A DNA stretch of 64,000 bases from contig CP147780.1 in NCBI GenBank assembly GCA_037310415.1, positions 2,496,001-2,560,000 on the forward strand. The letters are read 5' to 3'. Under the pieces are notes generated by a model, which ran no database searches, was not told the origin of the DNA, and worked only from the letters and a program-made list of their open reading frames with translations. Numbering within the stretch: position 1 is the stretch's first letter; the number at the start of each line of letters is the position of its first letter. Position numbers and translations under genes: made by a program. Shown piece by piece: positions 22,293-31,210 of this stretch. Source of the stretch: Candidatus Atabeyarchaeum deiterrae (GTDB lineage Archaea; Asgardarchaeota; Atabeyarchaeia; Atabeyarchaeales; Atabeyarchaeaceae).

Positions 22293-23438
22293 TCACACGT
22301 GGTCAAGTGTAATCTGGGTCGACGATCTTGCTGTAGCGTAAAGAATCTTCTTGTCATATGGGAACTGTAAAGCAAGTTGAGACTTTCCGCAGGGAGGATT
22401 CTTTGAGTTCGGGCAACTTCTAACACAATCAGCGTTGCATATTGGTTTGAATTTCCCTTCTTTAGTTCTTATCATCATGTAAGAGTTGGGCGAGCCTTCA
22501 CAATGTGAGAGTTGAGAAGAGTCGAATGATCTTTCAAGCTCCATGCAGACAGCATAGGTCATGCCGAGTCTTTCAGTCTCTGCCTTGAGTCGTTTGTGGA
22601 ATCGTTCACGTTTCTCTCGGGGAACTCTCAGCCATCCATTCTCGCGAGCGTAGCTTTCCTTGATTTGCAGGTATGATTTGTCCATTCCTTCTCTCAGCAG
22701 TCGATCCTTCACTGCTTGAAGCCCTAATGAATCAAATCTTGTTGTACTTGTAATGATATGCTTGACACCAATTCTCTTTGCGATTTGCAGAAGTTGAGTT
22801 AGCTCGTTGTGGTCATTACTGTATCCGAATATTATCGGGTCGATCCGCATCACCGTGTAGAAGCCTCGTGCCGCAAAGAGTCGTAGCGTTTCGATTCTCT
22901 CTTTTATGGGCGAGGAGTATGGAGATAGTACTCTTCTTTTTTCGTCATCGATTGTTTCCACGGACATCTGAAGGAAGAAGTACGGGTAATTTGTGAATCC
23001 TGGGATCTCGAGGAGCCTCTTAACCTGCATATTCTTTGTGATGATGTGAAATGAGACGCCAAACCTCATTATTGTTCTAACGGCTTTCATAGTTGATTGA
23101 ATTATATCCTCAACTGGCTGGAACACGTCCGTCGTAGCACAGAGGTAAAGTGGAGGACAAAGTACTATTTCGGAAAGCTCGTTTTCAAGTTTGTCGGGGA
23201 TATTATCGTAATAGGTGACTTCCCCAGTTTCCTCAGGATGAGCGCTCCACTTGTATCCTCTCGCATAGCAGTATGCACATAAATGTGTACATTGCCCAGG
23301 TGGCGTAAGATTGACCAGGCCCATGTGGGGGCACTTTCTGTTGGGCAGTTGATAAGTGAAATCGTGTATCAATCTGCCTTTTAGGCTTAGCGGCACAGCT
23401 TCAAACATGTGTCTGACTTTCACCACAGGGAAACTCAT
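22293..23438 (-). CDS. Radical SAM protein (SplB/Rv2578c-like)
   Basis: CTHLCAYCYAR, TDVFQP, IITKN, MRIDPII; extra Cys-rich C-terminus; start set at ATG 23438. Confidence 0.85.
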   Translation of the reverse strand: MSFPVVKVRHMFEAVPLSLKGRLIHDFTYQLPNRKCPHMGLVNLTPPGQCTHLCAYCYARGYKWSAHPEETGEVTYYDNIPDKLENELSEIVLCPPLYLCATTDVFQPVEDIIQSTMKAVRTIMRFGVSFHIITKNMQVKRLLEIPGFTNYPYFFLQMSVETIDDEKRRVLSPYSSPIKERIETLRLFAARGFYTVMRIDPIIFGYSNDHNELTQLLQIAKRIGVKHIITSTTRFDSLGLQAVKDRLLREGMDKSYLQIKESYARENGWLRVPREKRERFHKRLKAETERLGMTYAVCMELERSFDSSQLSHCEGSPNSYMMIRTKEGKFKPICNADCVRSCPNSKNPPCGKSQLALQFPYDKKILYATARSSTQITLDHV

Positions 23439-23540
23439 AGTGAAGCATATTAATCCCTTTGCGTATAGTCTGATTGTTGTTTTTTGGACAACAGACATAG
23501 GAAACAAGAGCTGGAATCGTGTTGTCTGGCCAAGGAGGGA

Positions 23541-23777
23541 ATGTGCATATTGAAGCGCGTGGTTATTGAGAAGTTGGGGCCAGAGGGTCACACAACGCTT
23601 GAAACTGATTTTGACGCGGCACTAGTCCTGTTGACCGATGAGATGGCTCGTGGATATCTTATTTTCAGTAGAGATACCCAGCAACGCGTAGCGAAGCAAG
23701 AGGATTTGGAGTCGCTAAAGGATCGTGTGGAAGACTCCATTAGAGTCATGGTCATACCACCTGTGGCTGGTGGGTAG
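23541..23777 (+). CDS. Small ubiquitin-like (beta-grasp candidate) protein with C-terminal GG
   Basis: About 75-78 aa ending RVMVIPPVAGG-stop; GGAGG at 23534-23538; start ATG 23541 or TTG 23550. Confidence 0.7.
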   Translation: MCILKRVVIEKLGPEGHTTLETDFDAALVLLTDEMARGYLIFSRDTQQRVAKQEDLESLKDRVEDSIRVMVIPPVAGG

Positions 23778-24613
23778 TGGTGACGGAGAACCTCATGCGC
23801 AATCAGAACATTGAAGTGGAAAAAAGAGCTCTGGCTCTCCTCAAAAGGATTTTGGAGGAGAACAGGCAGTCATTCAGATTGGAAGATGGCGCACTCAACG
23901 TAACGGCGCAGAATGGCGTTAAATACTCCATAGATACGAAGTCAGCCAGAGTCTACGACGACTCTGGCAAGTTCATATGTCTGAGAGTGTTGAGCCCAAG
24001 GTTGCCCGTCATTGACCAAGTCATAGCCAAGTCTCTCTACCTGTTGACTAATCCTCGACCGTCAATCGGCATTGATCATGACATGTTGTTCAAAGTTGCC
24101 TTCTTGGGATCCGACCCCGAAATTGAATGGCCTTGGATAAAATCAATCTCCCTCGCCACCCTTGGGGACGATTTTTCGAGTCTAATCGGAGTTGATTTTG
24201 CCGTCAAAAGAATTGAGACAATGGATCATGTGATAAAACTGCAGATGTGGTATTTGAACTGCGTCAATAGATTCAAGTCGGTGGGTGCAAGGTACATTCA
24301 TGGTGCGATGGGAGGAGTCGTACTGTGGAATGCAAGTGAAGATCCTGGTAAGATCGTTGATTTGCAGAGAAGCATTAATGATTTCTATTTCTGCAACGAA
24401 AGAAGCATGCCAACAATAATCATTGGATTGTGCGACGATACGAATGGCTGCAATGGAGATGAAAGGGCGCTGGAGGCTGGGGAAGATATCGCCAGGCGCA
24501 ATAACATACCTTTCTTTAAATGTGAACTCGGTCATCCTTCAACGACCGAAGCCCCTCTCAAATACTTAGCGAACATAATTATCAAGATGACCAACGTTTG
24601 CGCCTCAGGATGA
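23777..24613 (+). CDS. Fusion of an unknown Cys-containing N-domain with a degenerate Rab-like small GTPase
   Basis: RabF-like motifs IGVDF, KLQMW, RFKSV, YIHGA retained; P-loop, DxxG and NKxD lost. Confidence 0.75.
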   Translation: MVTENLMRNQNIEVEKRALALLKRILEENRQSFRLEDGALNVTAQNGVKYSIDTKSARVYDDSGKFICLRVLSPRLPVIDQVIAKSLYLLTNPRPSIGIDHDMLFKVAFLGSDPEIEWPWIKSISLATLGDDFSSLIGVDFAVKRIETMDHVIKLQMWYLNCVNRFKSVGARYIHGAMGGVVLWNASEDPGKIVDLQRSINDFYFCNERSMPTIIIGLCDDTNGCNGDERALEAGEDIARRNNIPFFKCELGHPSTTEAPLKYLANIIIKMTNVCASG

Positions 24614-24684
24614 TGATCTCTCTCTAGTCATTGAGCAAGTGCTTGGAGATTCCTTCTTTTTCATCAAGTGTGCGGGGAATTAGG

Positions 24685-25251
24685 ATGACACAAGAAGTAC
24701 TACTAGTCTCTACTAGTGGTTTGCCCAAAAGCGAAGCGCGACATGCCATCAAAGTTCTTGAGGAAAAACTCGGTCAGATCTTTTCGTTCAGGTCAAGCCA
24801 TGCAGGTGTCTTGCCTCTTGGTGCGTACGACAACAAAAGGAGGCAGTACGCCGCAGAAGCTTTTCTATCAATTGCAGAAGACATCAGAGTGAAAGAGAAG
24901 TGCGTTGCATCACTTGTGCTCACAGAAGTTGATATATTCGCCGCATCCACAAACTATGTCTTCGGGCTAGCTGACCTAGAGAGAGGCGTTGCTGTTGTGT
25001 CAAGTCACAGGATACATCCTTCTTTCTGGGGGATTGTGGAGCGTAGAGATTTCTTTGAGACTCAGTGGGGGAAAGTGGTGACTCATGAATTCGGGCATAC
25101 AGTTGGATTAATACACTGTCAAGATTGGAGTTGCGTTATGAAGTTCAGTAACTCGCCATCAGAGCTCTATGCGAAGGGAACGGGCTTCTGCAAGAAATGT
25201 GGAATAGAGCTGCAAGAAGTAGTCACAAAACTAGTAGAACAGAGACGATAA
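24685..25251 (+). CDS. amzA: Archaemetzincin (peptidase M54)
   Basis: RRQY, NYVFGLA, HEFGHTVGLIHC..SCVMKFSNS, FCKKC; start set at ATG 24685. Confidence 0.9.
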   Translation: MTQEVLLVSTSGLPKSEARHAIKVLEEKLGQIFSFRSSHAGVLPLGAYDNKRRQYAAEAFLSIAEDIRVKEKCVASLVLTEVDIFAASTNYVFGLADLERGVAVVSSHRIHPSFWGIVERRDFFETQWGKVVTHEFGHTVGLIHCQDWSCVMKFSNSPSELYAKGTGFCKKCGIELQEVVTKLVEQRR

Positions 25252-27013: not shown

Positions 27014-28885
27014 CTATTTCTTTTGTGCCCAAAGGTTCTCTGCTTCCTTCTGAAGTCCAAGCTCGATTAGTCTCTGCTCCGTAGGTTTGCCCGTCGCGTC
27101 CCACTTTCTCAGTGAGTAATACTCCTTTATCAAGCCCGCAAAGTTCTGAATGGCTTGACCTTGGTTGCCACCCTCAGTCTGCGGCTGCATGAGGCGCTTA
27201 GGAAGCACGTCATCCTTCGCCGTCAAACCTTGCCGTATGTTAAAAGCTCTTGTGACGTTAGAGATACGTTCGCCTGCTTTCATGAGGTCATCCACAGATA
27301 TTGTCCAGCCAGTTGCAGCATTTAGTAGGGAAGCCAATTGTCCAACACTGAAACCCGTTGACGTAGCATACGTGCAGACGCCGAGAGCATCGATTATCAT
27401 GTTCAGGTTGATTGCGGCCAGTGAGAGAGCTGCCTTGTGATCTTCTGAAGTAGCGTCGACTGACTCTGAGAGAGCTGGAACATCTGGTACGGGCGACTGA
27501 CCCATCTCTGCCGATTGTCCTTCAGTGTGTCGTCCACCTGTTGAGCCTACGGCATAGGTGACCGCCAATGATTTGTTGTATCTTGGGTCATGCATGGCCA
27601 CTTCAAGACCTTTGACATGAAGAGCGAATTCATCCGAGCCCTTGCCTATTTTCTTGGAAGCTCTCAGAACACCCTCAGCTAATGTGTTTCCAATGTCTTT
27701 CCGATATGCTATTTTTCCTATCATTTCAATTGTCGCGTTGCTGTCTCCCCATTTCAGTTCGATTTCGCCACATTCCCTCTTTGTTATCAAACCTTTTTCG
27801 TAACACTCCATGGCGAACGCTATAACCGTGCCAGTAGATATCGTGTCCAATCCCAGTCTATTGCACATGTCGTTTGCTTTGCAGAGCGCTGGAAGGTTGT
27901 CATTCATGCACAGTGTACCGAGAGAAGCGCATGTTTCATACTCTGGTCCGCACCCTTCGCAGACATAAGGCTTCTCAGTTATCTTCACCCATCGACCGCA
28001 TGCGATCTGACAGTTATAACAAGCGTATTTCCTTTTCAGATATGTTTCAGCCAATGCTCCTCCAGAGATCTTAATAGCATTCTCGAATTCGCCTTTGCTC
28101 CAATTCTTGACTGGTGTGTCTCCAGTGCCGACAAGCATGATCAGGCCGCCGCTCGATCCGTAGGCTGATAGTGCGGGAGTGATGGGGCTTTCTTTTATCA
28201 TTCTGATCGCTTCAAGACTCAGCTTTCTTAGCTCTCCCTCGTCTGCCAGGAGAGGCTTACGTGTTCCTCGGGCTGCAATGGCTTTCAGGTTCTTTGAGCC
28301 CATTACCGCGCCCATGCCACACCTTCCGGCTGCTCGATGCTTGTCGTTCATGACCGCCGCGAATCTAACAAGGTTCTCTCCTGCAGGACCACAGCATGCA
28401 GTTCTAATCTTCTTATCGCCCAAATCGTCTTGAATGATATCCTCCGTCTCAAATGCATCTTTTCCCCAGAGGTGGTCAGCTGACTTGAGCTCGGTTTCTC
28501 CATCATGAACCCAAAGGTATACTGGTTTGGGTGCTTTGCCTTGGAAGACTATCCCATCAAAGCCAGCACATTTCAGTTCGGGACCGAAATATCCACCACT
28601 GTTCGCATCTCCCCATGCCTCTGATGCAGGAGACTTGGCACACACTTCGTAGCGCCCACTTGAGGGGACTTGTGTCCCAGTTAGCGGACCGGTCATGAAA
28701 ACTATTCTATTCTCAGGATCAAAGGCGCCGACCTTCGGGTCAACCTCATCATAGATGATCCTGGCTCCAATGCCTCGCCCCCCTATGTAGGATTTGGCGA
28801 TGCTCTCTTTCAGAGGAGACTTTGTGATTTTCTGCTTAGTGAGGTCAACTCGAAGTATTTGACCAGCGTATCCGTATTTTGTCAT
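27014..28885 (-). CDS. aor: Tungsten-type aldehyde:ferredoxin oxidoreductase family
   Basis: GYAGQILRVDL, GGRG, AGRCGMGAVMGSKNLKA, CYNCQIAC, EYET, GLDTIS, HDPR. Confidence 0.95.
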   Translation of the reverse strand: MTKYGYAGQILRVDLTKQKITKSPLKESIAKSYIGGRGIGARIIYDEVDPKVGAFDPENRIVFMTGPLTGTQVPSSGRYEVCAKSPASEAWGDANSGGYFGPELKCAGFDGIVFQGKAPKPVYLWVHDGETELKSADHLWGKDAFETEDIIQDDLGDKKIRTACCGPAGENLVRFAAVMNDKHRAAGRCGMGAVMGSKNLKAIAARGTRKPLLADEGELRKLSLEAIRMIKESPITPALSAYGSSGGLIMLVGTGDTPVKNWSKGEFENAIKISGGALAETYLKRKYACYNCQIACGRWVKITEKPYVCEGCGPEYETCASLGTLCMNDNLPALCKANDMCNRLGLDTISTGTVIAFAMECYEKGLITKRECGEIELKWGDSNATIEMIGKIAYRKDIGNTLAEGVLRASKKIGKGSDEFALHVKGLEVAMHDPRYNKSLAVTYAVGSTGGRHTEGQSAEMGQSPVPDVPALSESVDATSEDHKAALSLAAINLNMIIDALGVCTYATSTGFSVGQLASLLNAATGWTISVDDLMKAGERISNVTRAFNIRQGLTAKDDVLPKRLMQPQTEGGNQGQAIQNFAGLIKEYYSLRKWDATGKPTEQRLIELGLQKEAENLWAQKK

Positions 28886-29087
28886 TTTGGATTGTTCCTC
28901 CACAGAGGTACGATTCGCGCTGAGGTCGTAACCAAATAATTAGCTAATGCAGATGTCACCAAAGAACGTTGATGATCCCATGACTAAAAAAGCATTTTGG
29001 ATTCTGTCCCGCTATAGGCAACACCTCAGTCGTTGTCAACCTATAAGTTAAAACAGTCTCGAAAATGTGCTCGATTCCTTCGTTCTG

Positions 29088-30364: not shown

Positions 30365-31210
30365 CTATGCCTTAAGTTTTTCAGGATTCTCCGTCGATTT
30401 CTCTTCGATCTTGGCGCCTGCTTTGATCGCACCTTCCATGATCATCTGAGTAGCTTTCCGCACTCTCCTTTCGGCTTCATCTTCCGTCAGTGCCGTTGTT
30501 GAGATGCATACTTCTGACTTCCCGTGGCCTTTGACGCAACTCTTTATCCATGTGTCGCCCACCGTTCTCATAGCTTCAACAATTGTCGGCGCGAGCAAGG
30601 CCTCCGCGACGCCTGTGACCAGTAGGGTTTTTTCAAAATGGAAAGCACTCCCTAGATGGTTTTTGATCCATGGGATTATGCTGTAGTTGAATATTGCTTT
30701 CATTTCCGAAGGGACCCCAGGGACAGAGAAAATGACGGTGGCTTCATGCTCAATCATTACTCCGGGGGCAGCGCCAGCTGGATTTGGGAGAGGAGTTGAC
30801 TGCCATGGCAAGGTTGCCATTTTTCCCATTGATGACTCGACGTCCGTTATTCTAAGTATTCCTGCTTTCTCCGCAAGGTGGTACCTTTCCTGCACCATTC
30901 TTAGAGCGATCGAGTTGGTCTGAAGCTTTTTATTAAGTGCTTTTGCCACACCTTCGAGGGTCACATCGTCGTATGTTGGTCCGAGTCCACCAGACGTTAT
31001 GATGTAGTTTGGTCTTCTGCCAAGAGCTCCTCGAATAGCATCAGCAATAATATCGACGCGGTCTTCGATCACGGTCATCCTTCTGACTTGAATGCCTATG
31101 GATGTGAGCTCCTTTGCTATCCATTGTGAGTTTGTGTCTAGAATGTTACCATTTAGCAGTTCATTTCCAGTAAGTATCAGTTCAGCAGTCTTCCAAGCGT
31201 TGTCATTCAA
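30365..31210 (-). CDS. CinA N-terminal/molybdopterin-binding domain protein (COG1058)
   Basis: GNELLNGNILDTN, TSGGLGPTYDDVT, NPAGAAPG, PGVPSEM. Confidence 0.9.
   Translation of the reverse strand: MNDNAWKTAELILTGNELLNGNILDTNSQWIAKELTSIGIQVRRMTVIEDRVDIIADAIRGALGRRPNYIITSGGLGPTYDDVTLEGVAKALNKKLQTNSIALRMVQERYHLAEKAGILRITDVESSMGKMATLPWQSTPLPNPAGAAPGVMIEHEATVIFSVPGVPSEMKAIFNYSIIPWIKNHLGSAFHFEKTLLVTGVAEALLAPTIVEAMRTVGDTWIKSCVKGHGKSEVCISTTALTEDEAERRVRKATQMIMEGAIKAGAKIEEKSTENPEKLKA

What the first reader, a model, noticed from the sequence alone, without database searches (positions are those of the whole stretch)
23541..25251. Candidate new ubiquitin-like system: atypical GG-Ubl + Cys-domain/pseudo-Rab fusion + archaemetzincin
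Seen: a ~75-aa protein ending VIPPVAGG that lacks MoaD/SAMP hallmarks (its N-terminus is IEKLGPEGHTTLE; compare the canonical SAMP at 50.8 kb). Its stop overlaps the start of a fusion gene. The fusion's ~95-aa N-domain (RALALL...NGVKYSI...RVY...FICL...LPVIDQVIAKSLYL) has a single Cys68 (23978-23980) and is joined to a Rab-like domain. A Zn protease follows on the same strand. From memory, unverified: the N-domain resembles an uncharacterised prokaryotic/phage family with a G..Y.I...C...LP..D...A..L pattern. Inference: the Cys domain is a non-canonical E2-like acceptor or ligase for this Ubl, the pseudo-Rab is an adaptor or target, and archaemetzincin could be a deconjugase. No E1 is present in the window.
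Basis: partly seen in the sequence, partly recalled or inferred. Interest (0 to 1): 0.85.

Follow-up and report, generated by a model that had tools for sequence, protein, structure and literature searches.

The report
Ubiquitin-like tag with mini-E2-like partner
An Asgard archaeon encodes a small ubiquitin-shaped protein ending in Gly-Gly directly before an undescribed ~90-residue cysteine domain with an E2/RWD-like predicted shape (here fused to a dead Rab-like GTPase). The gene pair recurs in every Asgard lineage examined that has either gene, so it looks like a new minimal ubiquitin-type module, untested at the bench.

Summary
A 75-aa protein ending VIPPVAGG (23550-23777) is translationally coupled to a 278-aa protein (23777-24613). 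That protein has a ~95-aa domain with one Cys (C68, 23978-23980) followed by a Ras/Rab-like domain that has lost motifs G1-G5. An intact M54 archaemetzincin follows.

Searches from either gene recover the other directly adjacent on the same strand in Njord-, Hel-, Hod-, Heimdall-, Prometh- and Freyr-archaeal DNA.
- GG is invariant (33/33).
- The Cys is present in 45/46 domains.
- The small protein is beta-grasp, with a ThiS/MoaD-like C-terminal half.
- The Cys domain models confidently (pLDDT 87). Its best solved matches are RWD, E2 and UEV domains at modest Z (6.1 or below).
- By sequence it is a compact relative of Pfam DUF7737, not of UQ_con.
- A controlled complex prediction supports binding, with the GG tail against the Cys loop.

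Most likely reading: a dedicated Ubl plus a minimal E2-like thioester carrier, charged by an E1 encoded elsewhere.

The archaemetzincin, radical SAM and AOR neighbours are conserved only within Njordarchaeota and are not part of the module.

This scan saw the same module before on another genome (e1-5499830), and bacterial and phage Ubl-DUF7737 pairs as well. I found no published description.

The parts
23534..23538 (+). GGAGG ribosome-binding-like site ahead of the Ubl gene
   Evidence: Read directly from the sequence. It lies 11 nt before the TTG at 23550 and 2 nt before the ATG at 23541.
23550..23777 (+). Ubl gene: 75-aa beta-grasp protein ending VIPPVAGG, then stop (alternative ATG start at 23541)
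   Evidence: 33 homologues, GG invariant, Gly13 invariant, His/Asp14 next to it; the Atlas model matches ThiS, SUMO and YukD beta-grasp clusters (TM 0.59-0.66); the C-terminal 29 aa align to ThiS/MoaD (Prob 90%).
23777..24061 (+). Cys domain (residues 1-95 of the fusion): helix, four-strand meander, Cys loop, helix. E2/RWD-like predicted fold; a compact DUF7737-superfamily member.
   Evidence: AF2 pLDDT 87, pTM 0.76. (RWD, E2 and UEV top the list, Z 6.1-3.8). (TM 0.64-0.66 to DUF4132+DUF7737 clusters). (13 of 32 members give sub-threshold DUF7737 hits). (wider family).
23978..23980 (+). Codon of Cys68, the conserved cysteine
   Evidence: Present in 45 of 46 domain copies. The only exception is the first copy of a tandem duplication. 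It lies in interface segment 67-77 of the predicted complex.
24074..24613 (+). Rab/Ras-like pseudo-GTPase domain of the fusion (residues ~100-278, plus stop)
   Evidence: Pfam Ras 29.5 bits from profile position 27. The alignment with canonical paralogues shows loss of the P-loop GK[ST], switch-I Thr, DxxGQ, NKxD and SAK. The fold is kept in the AF2 model. The fusion is seen only in Njordarchaeota relatives.
24631..25251 (+). M54 archaemetzincin (likely start at the ATG at 24685). A neighbour, not a core part.
   Evidence: Pfam Peptidase_M54 66.8 bits, HExxHxxGxxH present. Adjacent only in Njordarchaeota. Single copy and distant from the module in G127, G066, G108 and G124.
22293..23465 (-). 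Divergent radical SAM gene (neighbour; approximate true start from the 390-aa homologue)
   Evidence: Pfam Radical_SAM. Synteny only within Njordarchaeota.

Best explanation
The core feature is a two-gene module found in scattered Asgard archaea. It pairs a dedicated ThiS/MoaD-derived beta-grasp protein with a free C-terminal Gly-Gly and a ~90-residue domain of the DUF7737 superfamily. That domain has an E2/RWD-like layout (helix, four-strand meander, Cys loop, helix) and one nearly invariant cysteine.

Proposed mechanism:
1. An E1 encoded elsewhere adenylates the Gly-Gly end. The genome has a MoeB/UbaA-type ThiF at 2.681 Mb and a ubiquitin-type E1 at 0.349 Mb.
2. The activated C-terminus is passed to Cys68 as a thioester while the Ubl body packs on helices 1 and 2 of the domain.
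3. From there it goes to a target, or to the domain's own conserved Lys85.

In Njordarchaeota the domain is fused to a Rab-like pseudo-GTPase that cannot bind nucleotide in the usual way. That domain most likely serves as a docking or targeting module.

Shown: gene linkage, conservation of GG and Cys, the predicted folds, and model support for binding.
Inferred: the E1 step, the thioester, the target and the role of the pseudo-Rab.

The archaemetzincin is not part of the module.
For: Linkage.
- Starting from the Cys domain, a GG-ended ORF lies directly upstream in the window, G002, G003, L004, L005, L006, G127, G124, G123, G066, G108 and G109. In G122 the pair is split over two contig ends.
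- Starting independently from the Ubl profile, 4 of 4 new contigs (Hod-, Prometh- and Heimdall-archaeota plus one metagenome) have a Cys-domain gene 1-6 nt downstream, E 1e-19 to 1e-29.
- All-against-all comparison of flanks finds no other gene family shared across lineages.

Conservation.
- GG 33/33; 31 of the 33 end exactly at GG.
- Cys68 45/46, Asp80 45/46, Pro77 44/46, Lys85 42/46.

Folds.
- Ubl: the Atlas model matches ThiS (TM 0.66 and 0.62), SUMO (0.66) and YukD (0.59). hhalign to an Asgard ThiS profile gives Prob 90%, E 1.5e-6 over the last 29 residues.
- Cys domain: AF2 pLDDT 87.1, pTM 0.76.
- VIA-align against 48,161 chains ranks RWD first (2daw Z 6.1, rmsd 3.5, 91 aligned; 2dax Z 5.4, rmsd 3.6, 89; GCN2 RWD Z 5.1, rmsd 3.5, 85).
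- E2s follow (Ubc9 4y1l_C Z 4.9, rmsd 3.1, 80; UBE2E1 Z 4.7, rmsd 4.3, 90; E2S Z 4.7, rmsd 4.2, 88).
- Then UEV, UFC1 and a bacterial E1-E2-Ubl complex (8tyz_C Z 4.5, rmsd 5.2, 89). Most of the top 50 rows belong to this fold class.
- The Cys sits between strand 4 and helix 2, where E2s carry theirs.

Binding.
- Complex prediction score 0.74 against a best of 3 controls of 0.27. That mark was reached by 58 of 80 solved complexes and 2 of 110 mismatched pairs. These counts hold only roughly, because my own alignments were used.
- The runs agree in at least 96% of contacts, and the partner's pLDDT is at least 86.
- The interface comprises Ubl 69-75 (tail) and 9-14 (the conserved Gly-His loop) against domain 67-77 (Cys loop), helix 1 and helix 2 (80-91).
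Against: - No E1 is linked to the module in any Asgard locus.
- There is no significant sequence similarity to E2s: hmmscan finds no UQ_con, UEV, RWD or prokaryotic E2 family at E up to 10, and hhalign to an Asgard E2 profile gives E 0.12.
- The HPN motif and E2 helices 3 and 4 are absent.
- Foldseek against the PDB found nothing at E <= 0.001; its best row was frataxin/CyaY at TM 0.27.
- VIA Z values of 6.1 or below are in the range that the tool's own notes call a common arrangement.
- The large predicted non-covalent interface (75-77 contacts) would also suit a constitutive heterodimer.
- Bona fide DUF7737 proteins in other Asgard genomes keep the Cys yet have no GG ORF within 3-4 kb.
- A ThiS/MoaD-like tail and a Cys partner are equally compatible with sulfur transfer.
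Confidence: 0.48

Rival explanations
1. Non-catalytic pair. The Cys domain is a UEV/RWD-like binding module that holds the Ubl in a stable heterodimer, comparable to MoaD-MoaE or UEV-ubiquitin. The Cys would be structural or redox-sensing, and no thioester would form.
For: The top structural matches are RWD domains, which are non-catalytic. The predicted non-covalent interface is large and confident. No E1, HPN motif or E3 is linked.
Against: An invariant free Gly-Gly end (33/33) and a 45/46 conserved Cys in the loop that the tail contacts are hard to explain by binding alone. Two lineages carry a short extension after GG that would need trimming, which is typical of Ubls whose free C-terminus matters.
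Confidence: 0.2
2. Sulfur relay. The Ubl is thiocarboxylated by a MoeB/UbaA-type E1, as in ThiS, MoaD, TtuB or Urm1. The Cys domain would accept or donate sulfur as a persulfide or acyl-disulfide, possibly coupled to conjugation as described for Urm1 (from my own knowledge).
For: The only significant sequence relationship of the Ubl is to ThiS/MoaD. The genome's second E1 sits beside a NifU-like gene and a flavoprotein. In all sulfur-carrier complexes the GG tail inserts into the partner (established knowledge).
Against: No sulfur-using enzyme (MoaE, ThiG, TtuA, CysM type) or rhodanese is linked in any lineage. The genome already has five canonical ThiS-family genes. I know of no precedent for an E2/RWD-like fold acting as a persulfide carrier.
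Confidence: 0.17
3. One reading: Ubl, Cys-domain/pseudo-Rab and archaemetzincin act together, with the metalloprotease as maturase or deconjugase.
For: Same strand, 17-nt spacing, and conserved order in four Njordarchaeota-type loci. Some family members carry a post-GG extension that needs a protease.
Against: The adjacency is confined to one closely related family, where the radical SAM, GT2, AOR and MoCF genes are also syntenic. M54 is single-copy in each of five module-bearing genomes, and outside Njordarchaeota it lies on another contig or more than 1 Mb away. The Njordarchaeota Ubl ends at GG and needs no trimming.
Confidence: 0.1
4. An ordinary MoaD for tungsten/molybdopterin cofactor synthesis, serving the nearby aldehyde:ferredoxin oxidoreductase.
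For: AOR (27014-28903) and a MoCF_biosynth gene (30365-31210) lie within 7 kb, and this order is conserved in L004. The tail is MoaD-like.
Against: Pfam ThiS does not detect the protein, whereas it finds five other genes in this genome. No MoaE is adjacent. In Hel-, Hod-, Heimdall-, Prometh- and Freyr-archaeal loci the pair occurs without AOR or MoCF genes.
Confidence: 0.03

Closest known systems
Canonical E2 (UBC, Pfam UQ_con) with ubiquitin, as in the archaeal Ub-E2-E1(-RING) operons (Hennell James et al. 2017, PMC5654768). This genome has such an operon at 0.348-0.350 Mb.
   Same: Helix, four-strand meander, Cys loop and crossover-helix layout. The conserved Cys sits between strand 4 and helix 2. 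A Pro follows helix 2. The partner is a beta-grasp protein ending in GG whose tail is predicted to run to the Cys loop while its body packs on helix 2.
   Different: No detectable sequence homology. No HPN motif and no helices 3 and 4; the domain is about 90 aa rather than about 150. The Ubl is ThiS/MoaD-like, not ubiquitin-like. No E1, RING or JAMM gene is linked.
Pfam DUF7737 (PF24879), the C-terminal domain of bacterial DUF4132 proteins such as D. radiodurans DRA0166. The drA0165-drA0166 operon is induced on DdrO depletion (bioRxiv 10.1101/2021.07.07.451423).
   Same: The sequence pattern is shared: a hairpin motif, then the Cys, then L-P...D and an amphipathic helix. This is seen directly in bona fide DUF7737 sequences. 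There are 13/32 sub-threshold hits. The Asgard profile hits a true DUF7737 at E 4e-4. TM is 0.64-0.66 to DUF4132+DUF7737 Atlas clusters. Earlier notes of this scan report a GG-ended Ubl next to these bacterial and phage proteins, which I did not test.
   Different: The window's domain scores nothing against the Pfam model. It is standalone, or fused to small domains or a pseudo-GTPase, not the end of an 800-aa DUF4132 protein. It lacks the ~25-aa insert before the last helix. The family has no known function, so membership explains nothing by itself.
ThiS/MoaD/SAMP sulfur carriers and modifiers with MoeB/UbaA-type E1 (Pfam ThiS, PF02597)
   Same: Beta-grasp fold, a hydrophobic-P-P-V-x-G-G tail and a free GG end. 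Probably uses a ThiF-type E1.
   Different: Not detected by the Pfam model. A conserved Gly-His loop after strand 1. The partner is a Cys domain, not MoaE, ThiG or TtuA. Archaeal SAMP conjugation is E2-independent (established knowledge).
RWD and UEV domains (GCN2, RWDD2, Tsg101/Vps23): non-catalytic members of the UBC-like fold
   Same: Best structural matches (Z 6.1-4.3, 83-91 residues aligned). Small size and no HPN motif.
   Different: RWD and UEV domains lack the catalytic Cys; here it is conserved in 45 of 46 copies. No sequence similarity was found.
Bacterial E1-E2-Ubl operons (Bil/Bub; structure 8tyz; PMC10557695, PMC11601603)
   Same: A prokaryotic Ubl paired with a divergent E2-like protein. 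8tyz chain C is among the structural matches (Z 4.5, rmsd 5.2, 89 aligned).
   Different: Those operons encode their own E1 and a deubiquitinase. Their E2s are recognisable as prokaryotic E2 families. Here there are only two genes.
Rab-family small GTPases (Pfam Ras)
   Same: The fold and the Rab-type interswitch motifs (I-G-V-D-F, K-L-Q-x-W) are kept.
   Different: All five nucleotide-binding motifs are replaced. The score is 29.5 bits against 114-184 bits for 17 canonical paralogues in this genome.

Membership tests
E2 / UBC superfamily (UQ_con and relatives) | UBC-like core fold: N-terminal helix, four-strand antiparallel meander, crossover helix | tested here: met
   The AF2 model (pLDDT 87) has H3-28, four strands and H78-91. 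RWD, E2, UEV and UFC1 dominate the top 50 of 48,161 chains, but at modest Z (6.1 to 3.8, rmsd 3.1-5.2, 80-94 aligned). Foldseek found nothing at E <= 0.001.
E2 / UBC superfamily (UQ_con and relatives) | Catalytic Cys in the segment between strand 4 and the crossover helix | tested here: met
   C68 lies between strand 4 (59-60) and helix 2 (78-91). Conserved in 45/46 copies. The best, non-significant hhalign path pairs it with the E2 Cys.
E2 / UBC superfamily (UQ_con and relatives) | Significant sequence or profile similarity to a known E2 family | tested here: not met
   No UQ_con, Prok-E2, UEV, RWD or UFC1 hit at E up to 10 for any of 32 members. hhalign against 31 Asgard E2s gives E 0.12, Prob 0.5%.
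E2 / UBC superfamily (UQ_con and relatives) | HPN motif before the Cys and C-terminal helices 3 and 4 | tested here: not met
   The alignment shows V-Y/x in place of H-P-N. Most family members end about 10 residues after helix 2.
E2 / UBC superfamily (UQ_con and relatives) | E1-dependent thioester with the Ubl | not testable with these tools
   Only a predicted non-covalent complex is available: score 0.74 against a best control of 0.27, a mark reached by 58 of 80 solved complexes and 2 of 110 mismatched pairs (roughly, as my own alignments were used). The tail 69-75 contacts the Cys loop 67-77.
Pfam DUF7737 (PF24879) | Score above the Pfam gathering cut-off (27 bits) | tested here: not met
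   The window's domain gives no hit. 13 of 32 relatives give sub-threshold hits, best E 0.0015.
Pfam DUF7737 (PF24879) | Shared fold and motif, including the Cys (superfamily level) | tested here: met
   TM 0.66 and 0.64 to DUF4132+DUF7737 Atlas clusters. The Asgard profile hits a true DUF7737 (Pfam E 3e-38) at E 4e-4 over positions 13-88. The motif and Cys are visible in true DUF7737 sequences.
ThiS/MoaD family (PF02597) | Beta-grasp fold with a C-terminal Gly-Gly | tested here: met
   The Atlas model gives TM 0.66 and 0.62 to ThiS clusters. GG is present in 33/33.
ThiS/MoaD family (PF02597) | Match to the family profile | tested here: inconclusive
   Pfam ThiS is not found by hmmscan at E up to 10, nor by the genome search at 1e-5, which found 5 other genes. 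hhalign to 30 Asgard ThiS proteins gives Prob 90%, E 1.5e-6, but only for the last 29 residues.
ThiS/MoaD family (PF02597) | Linked sulfur-using partner (MoaE, ThiG, TtuA, CysM) or E1 | tested here: not met
   No such gene is shared among flanks.
Ras/Rab small GTPases (PF00071) | Profile match above the cut-off | tested here: met
   29.5 bits against a cut-off of 21.6, profile positions 27-141.
Ras/Rab small GTPases (PF00071) | G1-G5 nucleotide-binding motifs | tested here: not met
   P-loop GxxxxGK[ST] is replaced by G-S-D-P-E-I-E-W-P-W. Switch-I Thr is Leu. DxxGQ is Y-L-N-C-V. NKxD is L-C-D-D. SAK is C-E-L. The same replacements recur in 14 homologues.
Archaemetzincin (Peptidase_M54, PF07998) | Profile match and the HExxHxxGxxH zinc site | tested here: met
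   66.8 bits; the motif is read in the translation. It is a genuine member, but its link to the module is not supported.

The most novel reading that the evidence does not exclude
The DUF7737-type Cys domain is a minimal, E3-independent E2 that predates or parallels the UBC family. It would work with ThiS/MoaD-derived GG proteins in bacteria, phages and Asgard archaea, forming a mechanistic intermediate between sulfur-carrier systems and ubiquitin conjugation. In Njordarchaeota its fusion to a Rab-like pseudo-GTPase would couple this tagging step to the Asgard small-GTPase network.
Probability: 0.3. Interest if true: 0.9.

Novelty: new variant of a known kind. Interest (0 to 1): 0.75.

Why it matters
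How E2 enzymes and E2-dependent conjugation arose from E1-only sulfur-carrier systems is still open. Archaeal SAMPs use no E2, and the known archaeal E2s already look eukaryotic. This module pairs a MoaD-like Gly-Gly protein with a 90-residue E2-shaped cysteine domain, and it occurs in the archaeal group closest to eukaryotes.

If Cys68 takes a thioester, this would be the smallest E2 known. It would also give a first functional handle on DUF7737/DUF4132 proteins, which are widespread in bacteria and, in Deinococcus, induced on depletion of the DNA-damage-response repressor DdrO. The pseudo-Rab fusion would be a rare natural link between a tagging enzyme and the GTPase machinery of Asgard archaea.

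The question can be tested directly with three recombinant proteins.

Tried and rejected
- Sequence searches of the PDB with both profiles gave nothing useful. The Ubl gave no hit below E 0.3. The Cys-domain profile hit only designed 'Cake' propellers and a PQQ protein through an 18-residue hairpin motif.
- For the same reason, the multi-stretch hits of the sensitive search (P0023, P0024, P0028, P0029, P0032, P0042) are PAS arrays, repeats or low-complexity proteins and were discarded.
- Foldseek against the PDB and against viral models gave no match at E <= 0.001.
- The first AF2 run on the whole fusion with 14 close homologues left the N-domain below pLDDT 50. Only the 32-sequence alignment gave a usable model.
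- PHROGs gave no convincing hit.
With a narrower one it found nothing in viral contigs and only four already-known loci in genome contigs.
- The Atlas rows pointing to Uroviricota and Thermoplasmatota clusters therefore remain untested leads.
- Own-genome search with Pfam DUF7737: no hit.
- Flanks of true DUF7737 proteins in Asgard genomes G041-G043 and G012: no GG ORF and no Ubl-profile hit.
- Neighbourhood annotation in G127 and G066 showed only unrelated genes (LRR, PIN, ABC).
- Literature searches found no description of the pair. The library is incomplete, so this is not proof of novelty.
- Rejected: MoaD for the nearby AOR, and archaemetzincin as a module component (see the rival explanations).
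Full report
WHAT IS THERE

The window is bases 2,496,001-2,560,000 of a 2.76-Mb single-contig genome. Its closest named relatives are Candidatus Njordarchaeota, an Asgard group.

On the + strand, three genes follow one another.
- A small ORF ending VIPPVAGG. The start is the ATG at 23541 or, better, the TTG at 23550, which gives 75 aa. A GGAGG lies at 23534-23538.
- A 278-aa ORF whose GTG at 23777 shares one base with the small gene's TAG. A second GTG at 23780 fits the homologues' start.
- An M54 archaemetzincin (24631-25251) with an intact HExxHxxGxxH motif.

A radical SAM gene diverges upstream. A GT2 glycosyltransferase, a membrane protein, an aldehyde:ferredoxin oxidoreductase and a MoCF gene follow downstream on the other strand.

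THE FUSION PROTEIN

Residues ~100-278 match Pfam Ras just above the cut-off (29.5 bits) and only from profile position 27. I aligned them with three of the 22 canonical Ras-family proteins of this genome. The P-loop, the switch-I Thr, DxxGQ, NKxD and SAK are all replaced, while the Rab-type interswitch motifs are kept. The same replacements recur in all 14 homologues. This is a pseudo-GTPase.

THE PAIR IS A CONSERVED MODULE

Close homologues of both proteins occur only in Njordarchaeota-type DNA, where the whole neighbourhood is syntenic.

A full-library profile search with the N-domain found about 30 genuine distant relatives. They are either standalone (85-93 aa) or lie at the C-terminus of 170-260-aa proteins. 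The named ones come from Helarchaeota and Freyrarchaeum.

Reading the DNA upstream of these genes showed a ~72-aa ORF ending in GG in each case.

A scan of 400 Asgard genomes found the domain in 11 of them, spanning 9 of 85 genera. A GG-ended ORF lies directly upstream wherever upstream sequence exists.
- In G108 and G109 the Ubl was missed at first because it continues for 11 residues past GG.
- In G122 the two genes lie on two contig ends.

Conversely, a profile of the small protein retrieved 32 proteins, all unannotated. Where named, they come from Hel-, Hod-, Heimdall- and Prometh-archaeota. In 4 of 4 new contigs examined, the next gene, 1-6 nt downstream, carries the Cys domain at E 1e-19 to 1e-29.

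Clustering of all flanking ORFs found no further family shared between lineages. In particular, the M54, radical SAM, AOR and MoCF genes are syntenic only within Njordarchaeota. M54 is single-copy in five module-bearing genomes and distant from the module in the four that are not Njordarchaeota.

The core is therefore two genes. The patchy distribution suggests an accessory rather than a housekeeping function.

CONSERVATION

- GG is invariant in 33 sequences, and 31 of them end exactly there. Gly13 is invariant, followed by His or Asp.
- In 46 domain copies Cys68 is present 45 times. The exception is the first half of a tandem duplication. Asp80 (45), Pro77 (44), Leu87 (44) and Lys85 (42) follow.

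FOLDS

The ESM Atlas holds the small protein. Its model (pLDDT 0.74) matches beta-grasp clusters: ThiS TM 0.66 and 0.62, SUMO 0.66, YukD 0.59.

Pfam ThiS does not detect it. However, hhalign to a profile of 30 Asgard ThiS/MoaD proteins gives Prob 90%, E 1.5e-6 over the last 29 residues. The cross-control against E2s gives E 0.13.

The Cys domain, folded with the 32-sequence alignment, gives pLDDT 87.1 and pTM 0.76: helix 3-28, strands 33-36, 39-43, 49-53 and 59-60, a loop with C68, then helix 78-91.

Foldseek against the PDB found nothing at E <= 0.001. An exhaustive VIA-align run placed these on top:
- RWD domains: 2daw Z 6.1, rmsd 3.5, 91 aligned.
- E2s: Ubc9 Z 4.9, rmsd 3.1, 80 aligned.
- UEV domains, UFC1, kinetochore and FANCL RWD-like domains.
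- A bacterial E1-E2-Ubl complex: 8tyz_C Z 4.5, rmsd 5.2, 89 aligned.

These Z values are modest, and by the tool's own notes could reflect a common arrangement. What argues for a real resemblance is that one fold class fills most of the list.

There is no significant sequence link to E2s. hhalign gives E 0.12, although its best path pairs C68 with the E2 Cys. No E2, RWD or UEV Pfam family is hit. The HPN motif and helices 3 and 4 are absent.

RELATION TO DUF7737

- Thirteen of 32 family members give sub-threshold hits to Pfam DUF7737.
- The model matches Atlas clusters of DUF4132+DUF7737 proteins at TM 0.66 and 0.64. It matches unnamed Uroviricota and Thermoplasmatota clusters at 0.74-0.78.
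- The Asgard profile hits a true DUF7737 (Pfam E 3e-38) at E 4e-4.
- True DUF7737 sequences show the same hairpin motif, Cys and L-P...D-helix pattern.

The domain is therefore a compact branch of the DUF7737 superfamily, whose function is unknown.

Published context: D. radiodurans DRA0166 is a DUF4132 protein, and the drA0165-drA0166 operon is induced on DdrO depletion (bioRxiv 10.1101/2021.07.07.451423).

Earlier notes of this scan report GG-ended Ubls next to bacterial and phage DUF4132/DUF7737 proteins, sometimes with a minimal E1. They also report this same Asgard module in another genome. I treat these as leads. I tested only the DUF7737 relationship.

The link is not universal. True DUF7737 proteins in Asgard genomes G041-G043 and G012 have no GG ORF within 3-4 kb.

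DO THEY BIND?

Complex prediction with both alignments scored 0.74 against a best of three controls of 0.27. That mark was reached by 58 of 80 solved complexes and 2 of 110 mismatched pairs. The counts hold only roughly, because my own alignments were used. The runs agree in at least 96% of contacts, and the partner's pLDDT is at least 86.

The interface comprises the Ubl tail (69-75), its Gly-His loop (9-14) and strand residues, against the Cys loop (67-77), helix 1 and helix 2 (80-91) of the domain. The conserved residues of both proteins thus map to the predicted interface. The geometry resembles the closed E2~Ub arrangement, a comparison I make from knowledge, not from a computed superposition. 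The model supports binding; it does not show it.

MECHANISM

Most likely (about 0.5): a trans-encoded ThiF-type E1 activates the GG end, and Cys68 takes it as a thioester. The genome has a MoeB/UbaA-like E1 at 2.681 Mb beside a flavoprotein and a NifU-like gene, and a ubiquitin-type E1 with a ubiquitin-fold domain in a Ub-E2-E1 operon at 0.349 Mb. The variable appendages would then direct the tag: the pseudo-Rab in Njordarchaeota, and unrelated N-terminal regions elsewhere.

Rivals:
- a non-catalytic RWD/UEV-like binder (0.2);
- a sulfur relay of the MoaD/Urm1 type (0.17);
- an ordinary MoaD for the AOR cofactor (0.03).

VERDICT

The module is a new variant of the Ubl-E2 theme and is unannotated in all sources seen. 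I found no paper describing it. This scan saw it before on other DNA.

Noticed in passing
L035 1501-1749 (G108) and L034 36-287 (G109); P0087: In two related genomes the Ubl continues for 11 residues after Gly-Gly, and another member ends GG plus two Cys. In each case the first extra residue is Cys. These would need C-terminal trimming, unlike the other 31 family members.
   Followed up: partly
P0022 (Helarchaeota, NVM01150.1), residues 85-175 and 190-280: Tandem duplication of the Cys domain in one protein. The first copy is the only one of 46 that has lost the Cys.
   Followed up: partly
L116, L117, L123, L124, L126 (G041-G043); L115 (G155): Bona fide Pfam DUF7737 proteins (196-834 aa) occur in other Asgard genomes. 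They keep the Cys but have no GG-ended ORF within 3-4 kb.
   Followed up: partly
G000 0.3456-0.3499 Mb (L002, L039, L040): Eukaryote-like ubiquitin cluster: a 78-aa ubiquitin, a UQ_con E2 and a ThiF E1 with a C-terminal ubiquitin-fold domain lie in tandem. A second, 284-aa UQ_con-related (UEV-like) protein lies about 2.5 kb upstream on the opposite strand.
   Followed up: partly
L001 44-1135 (G000 about 2.680 Mb): A NifU-like gene interrupted by an intein with a LAGLIDADG homing endonuclease lies next to the second ThiF-type E1 and a flavoprotein.
   Followed up: no
window 22293-23591 (-): A radical SAM protein with weak DUF1848 similarity diverges from the Ubl gene. This arrangement is conserved in Njordarchaeota only. 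The listed 432-aa ORF probably starts about 40 codons later, judging by its 390-aa homologue.
   Followed up: no
L104 = DATKTP010000094.1: A contig labelled Candidatus Deferrimicrobium (a bacterium) carries the Asgard Ubl/Cys-domain pair, and its genome sits in the Asgard phylum of the genome collection. The record name is probably wrong, or the bin is mixed.
   Followed up: no
L005 4340-5687; L027 9413-10554: Two Cys-domain genes in tandem follow a single Ubl gene in a Helarchaeota-like contig and in G108.
   Followed up: no
window 24598-24610: The pseudo-Rab ends in C-A-S-G, which resembles a prenylation box. The ending is not conserved in the 14 homologues, so it is probably meaningless.
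   Followed up: yes
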